Counted from the stretch's first letter, positions 51,404-54,522 are shown. The stretch is DNA of 64,000 nt from Escherichia coli (GCF_003334785.1 NZ_QOWV01000003.1); one strand, 5' to 3'. Notes: generated from the letters alone by a model not told the origin. Numbers and translations are program-made.

Positions 51404-52541
51404 TCAGGCGTCACGCGGTAACCCTTTTTCAATCACCCGAACCAGACGCTGTTTTTTCGGCAATTGCACTTCGACTATGCACGCATTTCGTCTCTCTATT
51501 TGCTGCGCAATCGCCCACGCTATGTGCTCATCGAGAAGTGGGTGCTCACCTTTACGACTTTCCAGCGCTGTCAAAATCGTTTCATCCCAAGGGGCATTGC
51601 CTAATGCTACGGCGATATTACGCAGCCAACGCAGGTGACCAATACGACGAATCGCCGATCCTTCCGTGACTTTTAAAAACTTCTCTTCGCTCCAGGCGAA
51701 TAACTCAATGAGTTCCGGTGCGTGTAGCGGCTTACGCGGGCTGAAATCCTCTTCTGTGGTGAGTTGTGAATAGCGATTCCACGGGCAGATAAGCTGGCAG
51801 TCATCGCAACCGTAAATACGGTTTCCCATTAACGGTCGCAACTCTTCCGGGATCGCCCCTTCAAGTTCGATGGTGAGATAAGAGATACAGCGGCGAGCAT
51901 CGACGGTATATGGCTCGACGATGGCACCGGTCGGGCAAATCGTCATACAGGCCACGCATTTGCCGCATCCTTCCTCGACTGGTTGATCCACGGGCAGCGG
52001 AATATCGACCAGCAATTCGCCTAAAAAGAAGAACGAACCGGCCTCGCGATTGAGGATAAGTGAGTGCTTACCTGTCCAGCCGAGCCCAGCTTTTTCAGCT
52101 AACGGGCGCTCGAGAATAGGCGCAGAATCGACAAACGGTCTAAAATTCAGCGAAACACAATGTTGCTGAATCATCTCGCCCAGCTTTTTGAGTCGGTTGC
52201 GCAGAAGTTTGTGATAGTCACGGCCCAGCGCATAACGGCTAACATAGCCGAGTTTGGGGTTTTTCAGCGTGCTGGCAAATGCGGCGTTAGCAGGAAGGTA
52301 ATTCATCCGCACGCTGATCACGCGCAGCGTACCGGGCAATAACTCATGAGGGCGAGCGCGCAGCATACCGTGACGTGCCATCCAGTCCATTTCGCCGTGG
52401 TATTGTTTGTCCAGCCATGCTTGCAGTTTGGGCTCGGACTCGCTGAGATCGGTATCGGTAATACCTACCTGCTGAAAGCCCAGTTCCAGCCCCCACTGTT
52501 TAATTTTTTGCGCTAACTGATTGAGATCGAGGGGCTCTGAC

Positions 52542-52543
<2 letters not shown>
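51404..52543 (-). CDS. queG: epoxyqueuosine reductase (cobalamin/Fe-S)
   Basis: ORF 51404..52651; start moved to [27 protein letters not shown] (379 aa); two 4Fe-4S ferredoxin motifs (CGKCVACMTICP, CDDCQLICP). Confidence 0.9.

Positions 52544-54522
<1,979 letters not shown>

What the first reader, a model, noticed from the sequence alone, without database searches (positions are those of the whole stretch)
52541..52544. queG and nnr start codons overlap on opposite strands within one CATG palindrome
queG (minus) initiates at the complement of 52541-52543 and nnr (plus) at 52542-52544, so the two divergent genes share the palindrome CATG. Each promoter and 5' UTR must therefore lie inside the other gene's coding sequence, constraining both N-terminal codons. 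Both starts were chosen to match canonical protein lengths, so one could be mis-assigned.
Basis: partly seen in the sequence, partly recalled or inferred. Interest (0 to 1): 0.3.

Follow-up and report, generated by a model that had tools for sequence, protein, structure and literature searches.

The report
queG and nnr share start codons
In E. coli the back-to-back genes queG and nnr really do begin inside one shared CATG, with each gene's control signals buried in the other's coding sequence. This arrangement is conserved but already annotated, and its overlapping transcripts are already published.

Summary
CATG lies at 52541-52544. The 379-codon queG ORF starts on the complement of 52541-52543, and the 515-codon nnr ORF starts at 52542-52544. 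RefSeq annotates K-12 MG1655 the same way, and the window is identical to MG1655 over 51300-54200.

Both starts hold up in 81 Enterobacteriaceae sequences. queG is ATG plus 379 codons in all 81. The nnr ATG is in frame in 76 of 81, has the only good Shine-Dalgarno site (GAGGGG), and is the only usable start in several genera. The second ATG (52557) is not conserved, but four Kosakonia-type loci must use it, so minor use in E. coli is not excluded.

Silent codon positions are almost frozen where one gene carries the other's signals:
- queG codons 2-12 hold the nnr ribosome site.
- nnr codons 12-15 hold the queG extended -10.
- queG codons 131-135 hold the nnr-operon -10.

Published K-12 data place the transcription starts at window 52154 (+) and about 52567 (-). 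That gives a 413-nt antisense overlap, which yields RNase III-cut double-stranded RNA. ExcludonFinder (2025) lists queG-nnr as a divergent excludon.

Verdict: real, conserved and rare in kind, but already known. No regulatory role has been shown.

The parts
52541..52544 (.). Shared CATG. The queG start codon is the complement of 52541-52543 and the nnr start codon is 52542-52544, a 2-nt CDS overlap.
   Evidence: Conserved in 79 of 80 Enterobacteriaceae loci and in Pantoea.
51404..52543 (-). queG CDS (epoxyqueuosine reductase), 379 codons plus stop.
   Evidence: ATG plus 379 codons in 81 of 81 sequences. Residue 6 aligns to the first residues of B. subtilis QueG, PDB 5D08.
52542..54089 (+). nnr (yjeF) CDS, NAD(P)HX epimerase/dehydratase, 515 codons plus stop. 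First gene of the nnr-tsaE-amiB-mutL-miaA-hfq... operon.
   Evidence: Pfam YjeF_N covers residues 40-199 and Carb_kinase 258-496. Operon described in PMC4161252.
52529..52534 (+). Shine-Dalgarno site GAGGGG for the nnr ATG at 52542. It lies inside queG codons 4-5 (CCC CTC).
   Evidence: Predicted anti-SD duplex -7.2 kcal/mol with 6-nt spacing. The same calculation gives -3.2 for ATG 52557 and +1.3 for TTG 52521. Silent positions are 0.95-1.00 conserved.
52508..52540 (-). queG codons 2-12, a block of constrained silent sites. On the other strand this is the last 33 nt of the nnr 5' UTR.
   Evidence: Mean third-position conservation 0.935, against 0.647 for the whole gene; 0 of 20000 random draws reach it.
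52545..52553 (+). nnr codons 2-4 (ACG GAC CAT), nearly invariant at the nucleotide level. On the other strand this is positions -1 to -10 of the queG 5' UTR.
52557..52559 (+). Second in-frame ATG of nnr (MKKNP..., 510 aa). A possible minor alternative start.
   Evidence: Not conserved: GTG, TTG, CTG, GAG, ATA, CTA or CTT in other genera. It is the obligatory start in four Kosakonia-type loci that carry a +1 insertion. Weak SD.
52575..52583 (-). queG promoter, an extended -10 element TGGTATACT on the minus strand. It lies inside nnr codons 12-14 (AGT ATA CCA).
   Evidence: A single codon each across all aligned sequences, including the rare ATA. It sits 7 nt upstream of the ~52567 transcript-overlap end. 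It falls inside the segment removed in the published delta-PqueG strain, judged from the primer PgueG-del-L2.
52544..52567 (-). queG 5' UTR, about 24 nt, lying in nnr codons 1-9. The transcription start is at about 52567, give or take a few nt.
   Evidence: Overlap end 4392114 in U00096.2, mapped to the window. No SD better than random, -2.2 kcal/mol.
52141..52146 (+). nnr-operon promoter -10 hexamer TAAAAT. It lies inside queG codons 133-135 (AAT TTT AGA).
   Evidence: queG codons 131-135 are one single codon each in 81 of 81 sequences, including the rare AGA. It sits 7 nt upstream of the published TSS at 52154.
52154..52541 (+). nnr 5' UTR, 388 nt, antisense to queG codons 1-130.
   Evidence: Conway promoter at U00096.2 4391701 = window 52154.
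52154..52567 (.). Region transcribed on both strands (413-nt overlap), the source of RNase III-cut double-stranded RNA.
   Evidence: p19 clusters S-361 and E-284 map to window 52207-52562. Lybecker dsRNA MS-212 maps to window 52170-52553. queG-nnr is listed as a divergent excludon.

Best explanation
Both annotated starts are genuine, and the two genes form a conserved head-to-head overlap. Because there is no intergenic DNA, every initiation signal of one gene is written into the coding sequence of the other.

- The nnr ribosome-binding site GAGGGG is queG codons 4-5.
- The queG promoter is an extended -10 (TGGTATACT) formed by nnr codons 12-14. It gives a queG mRNA with a 5' UTR of about 24 nt and no good SD, made of nnr codons 1-9.
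- The primary promoter of the nnr-tsaE-amiB-mutL-miaA-hfq operon (-10 TAAAAT) is queG codons 133-135. It gives a 388-nt leader antisense to the first 130 codons of queG.

The genes diverge but their promoters face each other. The two mRNAs are therefore complementary over about 413 nt, a stretch that includes both start codons and the nnr SD. They pair into double-stranded RNA that RNase III cuts.

Shown: the sequence, the conservation, the constraint on silent sites, and (from published work) the transcript-overlap boundaries and the dsRNA.

Inferred: that the predicted -10 elements are the functional promoters, that ATG 52542 is the main nnr start in E. coli, and that the overlap has any reciprocal regulatory effect.
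For: Starts.
- queG is ATG plus 379 codons in 81 of 81 sequences.
- No upstream in-frame start of queG is conserved, and 5 of 81 loci have none.
- The B. subtilis QueG structure aligns from E. coli residue 6.
- The nnr ATG 52542 is in frame in 76 of 81 sequences. It is the only in-frame start codon in the interval scanned (up to 30 codons past the SIPH motif) in L056, L064, L067, L072 and L082.
- It has the only strong SD: -7.2 kcal/mol, against -3.2 for ATG 52557.
- In Salmonella arizonae, ATG became ATT and the next codon changed from ACG to ATG, which recreates a start 3 nt downstream.

Embedded signals.
- Third-position conservation is 0.935 in queG codons 2-12, against 0.647 gene-wide.
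- It is 1.00 in nnr codons 12-14, against 0.594 gene-wide.
- It is 0.99-1.00 in queG codons 131-135, where the rare codons ATA and AGA are fixed.

Transcripts.
- The published promoter and overlap coordinates map to window 52154 and about 52567. Each lies 7 nt downstream of a -10 element found independently from the conservation data.
- dsRNA clusters from two independent methods cover window 52170-52562.
- The most abundant small dsRNA read is the nnr SD region itself.
- ExcludonFinder lists queG-nnr among 16 divergent excludons.
- The delta-PqueG strain removes about 52573-52603.
Against: No direct protein-level or ribosome-level evidence for either start was found; the N-terminomics and initiation-profiling supplements I could read contained neither gene.

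The 15 nt between the two nnr ATGs are under strong nucleotide constraint as queG leader. Frame conservation there is therefore weaker evidence for coding than it looks.

Four Kosakonia-type loci prove that a protein starting at the second ATG is viable.

The generic sigma-70 scan found no promoter in 52100-53000, because neither promoter has a good -35.

The queG transcription start maps to a T on the minus strand, so it is probably 1-3 nt off.
Confidence: 0.85

Rival explanations
1. The nnr start is mis-annotated in E. coli. Translation really begins at the second ATG (52557, MKKNP..., 510 aa), so the two coding sequences do not overlap and a 13-nt spacer separates them.
For: - Kosakonia cowanii, K. 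arachidis, K. oryziphila and a related MAG have a +1 insertion that puts the first ATG out of frame, so they must use the second ATG.
- Residues 1-11 lie far outside the Pfam YjeF_N domain, which starts at residue 40, and residues 5-11 are poorly conserved.
- The invariance of 52544-52554 can be explained by its role as queG leader alone.
Against: - The second ATG is replaced by CTG, GAG, ATA, CTA or CTT in many genera that keep the first ATG in frame, and several of these have no other start codon.
- The conserved GAGGGG sits at the right distance for the first ATG only.
- Salmonella arizonae lost the first ATG but gained an ATG in the adjacent codon, although it already has the second ATG.
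Confidence: 0.07
2. Both nnr ATGs are used in E. coli, giving two proteoforms that differ by five residues. The overlap is real but only part of the Nnr pool starts in the CATG.
For: Both ATGs are in frame in Escherichia, Citrobacter and Salmonella. The second has a weak GGA 7 nt upstream. Kosakonia shows it can work as a start.
Against: There are no data for it. The second start is not conserved as a start codon, and its SD score is no better than random sequence.
Confidence: 0.2
3. The overlap is a selected regulatory device, a true excludon. Transcription from one promoter represses the other gene through polymerase collision and RNase III cleavage of the paired 5' regions. QueG and the primary transcript of the nnr operon would then be expressed reciprocally.
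For: - The promoters face each other across 413 nt, and abundant dsRNA is found in both exponential and stationary phase.
- The pair is classed as a divergent excludon in at least 50% of 58 transcriptomes.
- The head-to-head pairing of queG with the tsaE-amiB operon is kept even in distant gammaproteobacteria that lack nnr at this site.
Against: - No experiment shows reciprocal expression at this locus.
- Sense and antisense small-RNA reads are roughly equal, which fits passive pairing as well.
- The downstream operon genes have seven further promoters, so any effect would be largely confined to nnr.
- Conservation of the layout is also explained by the difficulty of separating signals that have become interleaved.
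Confidence: 0.25
4. The queG start is mis-assigned, for example to the upstream in-frame GTG at 52651 (415 aa) or to a downstream codon.
For: In E. coli the ORF stays open for 36 codons upstream of the ATG. Some Salmonella and Citrobacter rodentium records annotate a 384-aa form that starts 5 codons upstream.
Against: - Upstream in-frame start codons differ from species to species. Five loci have none, and one has a stop 2 codons upstream.
- The mapped queG transcript starts at about 52567, downstream of 52651.
- The next in-frame Met downstream is around codon 52, which would remove conserved N-terminal sequence that aligns to the solved QueG structures.
Confidence: 0.02

Closest known systems
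Divergent excludons (overlapping 5' transcripts of neighbouring opposite-strand genes), e.g. the E. coli set in ExcludonFinder (PMC12288877) and the p19 dsRNA clusters asd-yhgN and rsd-nudC (PMC7373196)
   Same: Opposite-strand neighbours with facing promoters, overlapping 5' transcript ends and RNase III-cut dsRNA. queG-nnr is itself listed in both studies.
   Different: Here the coding sequences themselves overlap (gap of -2 nt), whereas excludon pairs in E. coli have a mean intergenic gap of 95 nt. The overlap covers both start codons. No mutually exclusive expression has been shown for this pair.
Short divergent (head-to-head) overlapping genes in prokaryotic genome surveys (Lillo and Krakauer 2007, PMC2174442)
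   Same: Two CDSs on opposite strands that overlap at their 5' ends. This is the rarest class: 331 divergent overlaps, against 1890 convergent and 12737 codirectional, in 58 genomes.
   Different: Many surveyed cases are suspected mis-annotations. This one is supported by conservation across at least 80 species, by transcript boundaries from published RNA-seq mapping and by silent-site constraint.
Regulatory signals embedded in coding sequence, such as internal promoters and ribosome sites of operon genes. An example at this locus is the tsaE start inside the 3' end of nnr.
   Same: Silent-site conservation marks the embedded signal. The same analysis picked out the nnr-tsaE junction, nnr codons 497-515.
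   Different: At queG-nnr the embedding is reciprocal and on opposite strands. It has fixed rare codons (ATA, AGA) in both genes.
Noncontiguous operon (Saenz-Lahoya et al. 2019, as cited in PMC12288877)
   Same: ExcludonFinder lists yjeV-queG-nnr as one of three E. coli cases in which same-strand genes are co-transcribed across an opposite-strand gene.
   Different: The promoter at 52154 already accounts for nnr transcription. Read-through from yjeV/glyVXY across all of queG was not examined here.

Membership tests
Head-to-head (divergent) overlapping protein-coding genes | Two genuine CDSs on opposite strands whose 5' ends share nucleotides | tested here: met
   CATG is shared. Both ORFs are conserved at full length, and both starts are supported by comparative evidence. 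Neither start has direct protein-level confirmation.
Divergent excludon | Transcripts of the two neighbouring genes overlap at their 5' ends | tested here: met
   This rests on published data re-mapped here: boundaries at window 52154 (+) and about 52567 (-), a 413-nt overlap. The conserved -10 elements I predicted sit 7 nt upstream of each.
Divergent excludon | The overlap forms double-stranded RNA that RNase III processes | not testable with these tools
   Published: p19 clusters S-361 and E-284, and Lybecker dsRNA MS-212.
Divergent excludon | Expression of one gene lowers expression of the other (mutual exclusion) | not testable with these tools
   I found no data for this pair. The delta-PqueG strain in PMC10950094 was assayed only for datA transcription and replication initiation.
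QueG, epoxyqueuosine reductase | QueG_DUF1730 plus 4Fe-4S (Fer4_16) domains, and similarity to solved QueG structures | tested here: met
   PF08331 and PF13484 are recorded on the identical protein. PDB 5D08 matches at E = 2.6e-49 over residues 6-364.
Nnr, bifunctional NAD(P)HX epimerase/dehydratase (YjeF) | N-terminal YjeF_N domain and C-terminal Carb_kinase domain | tested here: met
   PF03853 covers residues 40-199 and PF01256 covers 258-496. Thermotoga Tm0922 matches at E = 7e-59.
Leaderless mRNA | The transcript starts at or within a few nt of the start codon | tested here: not met
   The leaders are about 24 nt (queG) and 388 nt (nnr) by the published mapping.

The most novel reading that the evidence does not exclude
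The shared start codons and facing promoters could be a selected reciprocal switch. Firing of the queG promoter would block transcription, translation and stability of the primary nnr-tsaE-amiB-mutL-miaA-hfq transcript, and the reverse would also hold. That would link the last step of queuosine tRNA modification inversely to the head of the operon that encodes other tRNA-modification and RNA-chaperone functions.
Probability: 0.2. Interest if true: 0.45.

Novelty: already known. Interest (0 to 1): 0.2.

Why it matters
It is a clean, well-supported example of the rarest kind of bacterial gene overlap, and it sits in the best-studied bacterium. Two genes share start-codon bases, and each carries the other's promoter or ribosome site in its own codons. 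The effect on codon choice is measurable: the rare codons ATA and AGA are fixed across genera. That makes it a useful teaching and benchmark case for gene callers and for methods that detect constraint on silent sites. It also matters for anyone engineering either gene, because deletions or recoding of the first 15 nnr codons, or of queG codons 1-12 and 131-135, will disturb the neighbouring gene. It does not open a new biological question, since the annotation and the overlapping transcripts are already published.

Tried and rejected
- Direct evidence for the translation starts. I searched the held supplements of an E. coli N-terminomics paper, an in-vitro initiation-profiling paper, the retapamulin preprint, the Cappable-seq TSS paper, the Conway operon paper and a Salmonella riboproteogenomics paper. 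They were either not held or did not contain these genes. The Thomason dRNA-seq paper is not in the library.
- Generic sigma-70 and terminator scan of 52100-53000. It gave no hits, because both real promoters lack a good -35. They were found through silent-site conservation instead.
- RNA structure as the cause of the invariant 32-nt block. Rejected: both 5' regions fold less well than shuffled sequence, z = +2.2 and +1.8.
- Upstream TTG 52521 as the nnr start. Rejected: no SD (+1.3 kcal/mol), and it is absent or followed by a stop in about 11 genera.
- queG extension to GTG 52651. Rejected.
- Leaderless translation. Rejected.
- How far back the overlap goes. Pantoea (Erwiniaceae) keeps it. 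Distant gammaproteobacterial QueG homologues (52-56% identity) sit head-to-head with tsaE-amiB and have no nnr there.
- Annotation source. I first took annotation from strain 203740 for the whole window, but it is not colinear with the left part of the window. I used the K-12 annotation instead.

Full report
**1. What is in the sequence.**

The four bases at 52541-52544 are CATG. On the minus strand, the ATG formed by the complement of 52541-52543 opens a 379-codon reading frame ([15 protein letters not shown]...). On the plus strand, the ATG at 52542-52544 opens a 515-codon frame ([15 protein letters not shown]...).

The window is Escherichia coli chromosome. RefSeq annotates exactly these two genes with exactly these starts, both in the best-matching strain and in K-12 MG1655: queG 4392928..4394067 on the minus strand and nnr 4394066..4395613 on the plus strand, a 2-nt overlap. 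Over 51300-54200 the window is base-for-base identical to MG1655, so published K-12 data can be mapped onto it directly.

The tetramer itself is unremarkable, with 200 copies in the window. The real question is whether two genuine start codons meet in it.

**2. Are the two starts right?**

I collected the orthologous locus from 80 other Enterobacteriaceae species. All have queG and nnr head to head.

*queG.* It is ATG followed by 379 codons in all 81 sequences. Upstream in-frame start codons differ from species to species, are absent in five loci, and in one locus a stop lies two codons upstream. The solved Bacillus subtilis QueG aligns from E. coli residue 6 to its own first residues. The next in-frame Met downstream is near codon 52. 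The queG start is therefore secure.

*nnr.* The evidence for the CATG-embedded ATG is as follows.
- It is in frame with the conserved body of the protein in 76 of 81 sequences.
- In at least five genera it is the only in-frame start codon up to 30 codons past the conserved SIPH motif.
- It is preceded by a conserved GAGGGG. The predicted anti-Shine-Dalgarno duplex is -7.2 kcal/mol with 6-nt spacing. The second ATG at 52557 scores -3.2, and the in-frame TTG at 52521 scores +1.3. Random 20-mers from the window average -2.5.
- The second ATG is not conserved. The equivalent codon is GTG, TTG, CTG, GAG, ATA, CTA or CTT elsewhere.

Two natural variants are informative.
- In Salmonella enterica subsp. 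arizonae the sequence is CATTATG. The nnr ATG has become ATT and the next codon has changed from ACG to ATG. This recreates a start 3 nt downstream and leaves the queG ATG intact. Subspecies diarizonae shows the intermediate CATGATG.
- Four related loci (Kosakonia cowanii, K. arachidis, K. oryziphila and a MAG) carry a 1-nt insertion between the two ATGs. There nnr must start at the second ATG and the genes no longer overlap.

The first five residues are therefore dispensable. Minor use of ATG 52557 in E. coli cannot be excluded. I found no N-terminal proteomics or initiation-profiling data for either gene.

**3. Where the signals are.**

With no intergenic DNA, each gene's signals must sit in the other gene. 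I measured conservation of third codon positions across the 81 sequences. The gene-wide means are 0.647 for queG and 0.594 for nnr, and only 6-8% of degenerate codons reach 0.95. Against that background:

| Codons | Window | Third-position conservation | What lies there |
|---|---|---|---|
| queG 2-12 | 52508-52540 | mean 0.935 (0 of 20000 random draws reach it) | end of the nnr leader, including its SD |
| nnr 2-4 | 52545-52553 | 0.90-1.00 | last 10 nt of the queG leader |
| nnr 12-14 (AGT ATA CCA) | 52575-52583 | one codon each in every aligned sequence, including the rare ATA | minus strand reads TGGTATACT, an extended -10 promoter element |
| queG 131-135 (TCG CTG AAT TTT AGA) | 52139-52153 | one codon each in 81 of 81, including the rare AGA | plus strand reads TCTAAAATTCAGCGA, with the -10 hexamer TAAAAT at 52141-52146 |

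The same analysis also picked out the known nnr-tsaE overlap (nnr codons 497-515), which serves as a positive control.

**4. Agreement with published transcript maps.**

The supplement of Huang et al. 2020 (PMC7373196) tabulates this locus in U00096.2 coordinates.
- p19-captured RNase III dsRNA clusters: S-361 at 4391754-4392109 and E-284 at 4391759-4392107.
- An independent dsRNA-antibody locus from Lybecker et al.: MS-212, category "Divergent", 4391717-4392100.
- Conway et al.'s overlapping transcripts: plus-strand operon with promoter 4391701 and terminator 4408049, overlapping the divergent unit by 413 nt, up to 4392114.

Converted to window coordinates (checked against a small-RNA read that spans the CATG):
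- The nnr-operon transcript starts at 52154, an A, 7 nt downstream of the TAAAAT.
- The overlap ends at about 52567. I read this as the start of the queG transcript, although the table does not label it so. It lies 7 nt downstream of the TATACT.

Both promoters, which I had inferred from conservation alone, thus coincide with published boundaries derived from RNA-seq promoter mapping. A separate study built a delta-PqueG strain. Its primer joins 52543-52572 to 52604-52619, which removes exactly the element at 52573-52603.

The queG leader is therefore about 24 nt long and has no SD better than chance. The nnr leader is 388 nt long and is antisense to queG codons 1-130. The most abundant small dsRNA read at the locus is AUUGAGAUCGAGGGGCUCUGA, which is the nnr SD region.

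ExcludonFinder (PMC12288877) lists queG-nnr among only 16 divergent excludons of MG1655. It also lists yjeV-queG-nnr as one of three noncontiguous operons. Conway et al. describe the yjeF-...-rlmB unit as the most complex operon in their data, with 14 genes and 8 promoters.

**5. How it most likely works.**

*Shown.*
- The two CDSs share the A and T of their start codons.
- The layout is conserved across Enterobacteriaceae and in Pantoea.
- The silent sites that carry the partner's signals are frozen.
- By published data, the transcripts overlap by about 413 nt and yield RNase III products.

*Inferred.*
- TGGTATACT and TAAAAT are the functional -10 elements. Neither has a good -35, which is why the generic scan found nothing.
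- ATG 52542 is the main nnr start in E. coli.
- Pairing of the two 5' regions can mask both ribosome sites.

It is not known whether this has regulatory value (a true excludon) or is simply tolerated. I put the regulatory reading at about 0.2-0.25. The 5' regions are less structured than shuffled controls, z = +2.2 and +1.8. The conservation is therefore not explained by RNA folding.

A plausible reason the arrangement can exist is that the first 11 or so residues of Nnr lie outside the catalytic domain. Pfam YjeF_N begins at residue 40, and residues 5-11 vary freely. This N-terminal tail can therefore carry a promoter and a leader for the neighbour at little cost to the protein.

**6. How unusual it is.**

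Divergent overlaps are the rarest class in genome surveys: 331, against 1890 convergent and 12737 codirectional, in 58 genomes. The usual explanation is exactly the crowding of initiation signals seen here. Among the eight divergent pairs in the K-12 region covered by the window, the other seven are separated by 41-336 nt.

In distant gammaproteobacteria (QueG 52-56% identical), queG still sits head to head with tsaE-amiB, with a 40-nt gap or a called 6-nt overlap, and nnr is not present at that site. Tight divergent pairing of queG with this operon is therefore old. I could trace the CATG sharing itself only as far as Enterobacteriaceae plus Erwiniaceae.

**7. Verdict.**

The worry about a mis-assigned start is largely resolved by comparative evidence. 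The feature is real, conserved and rare in kind.

It is nevertheless already in the reference annotation, and its overlapping transcripts, dsRNA and excludon classification are already published. This analysis adds three things:
- cross-genus support for both starts;
- the nucleotide-level map of the reciprocally embedded signals, including the fixed rare codons;
- the natural variants in Kosakonia and Salmonella.

Interest is low (0.2), and the novelty class is "already known".

Noticed in passing
window 50948-51134: The window has only two tandem tRNA-Gly(GCC) genes where MG1655 (glyV, glyX, glyY) and strain 203740 have three. One 112-nt repeat unit is missing, although the rest of the window matched MG1655 exactly at every point sampled (a 40-nt probe every 2 kb).
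   Followed up: partly
window 52061-52081 (queG codons 155-161, GGC TGG ACA GGT AAG CAC TCA): A second patch of near-invariant silent sites inside queG (third-position conservation 0.85-0.99). I could not match it to a convincing promoter or other element on either strand.
   Followed up: no
window 53607-53651 (nnr codons 356-370): Two adjacent windows of raised silent-site conservation inside nnr (0.87-0.88, against a gene mean of 0.59). This may be one of the internal promoters reported for the yjeF-...-rlmB operon. It contains TTGAAC followed 18 nt later by GATAAG.
   Followed up: no
window 54061-54089 and nnr codons 497-515 (54030-54086): tsaE starts 29 nt before the nnr stop, a same-strand overlap. 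nnr silent sites there are the most conserved in the gene (0.91-0.96), as expected for an embedded ribosome site and start.
   Followed up: partly
window 51368-51421: The 17-codon yjeV ORF overlaps the 3' end of queG convergently by 18 nt (51404-51421). The DnaA-inactivating datA locus lies in the adjacent stretch between the tRNA-Gly operon and the 3' end of queG, and is crossed by read-through transcription from the tRNA-Gly promoter (PMC10950094).
   Followed up: partly
L016, L018 (Salmonella enterica subsp. diarizonae and arizonae), equivalent of window 52556-52559: Salmonella has a second CATG five codons upstream of the queG start (AACATGAAG). An alternative queG start (384 aa, as annotated in some Salmonella and Citrobacter rodentium records) and the second nnr ATG share that palindrome as well.
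   Followed up: partly
L050, L055, L061, L063 (Kosakonia cowanii, K. arachidis, a MAG, K. oryziphila): A 1-nt insertion after CATGACGGACCATA puts the CATG-embedded ATG out of frame with nnr. It then opens a short out-of-frame ORF (MTDHRNEEK...), and nnr starts at the second ATG, 14 nt clear of queG.
   Followed up: partly
L052, L059 (Escherichia sp. ESNIH1, Pseudescherichia vulneris): A 12-nt in-frame insertion in the variable N-terminal tail of nnr, between the second-ATG position and the queG -10 element. It lengthens the queG leader/discriminator region by 12 nt.
   Followed up: no
window 52551-52553 (minus strand): An out-of-frame ATG lies 10 nt upstream of the queG start, inside the 24-nt queG leader. 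It opens a 17-codon ORF ([17 protein letters not shown]) that overlaps the queG start. It is conserved wherever CCATA is conserved and is absent in Buttiauxella.
   Followed up: no
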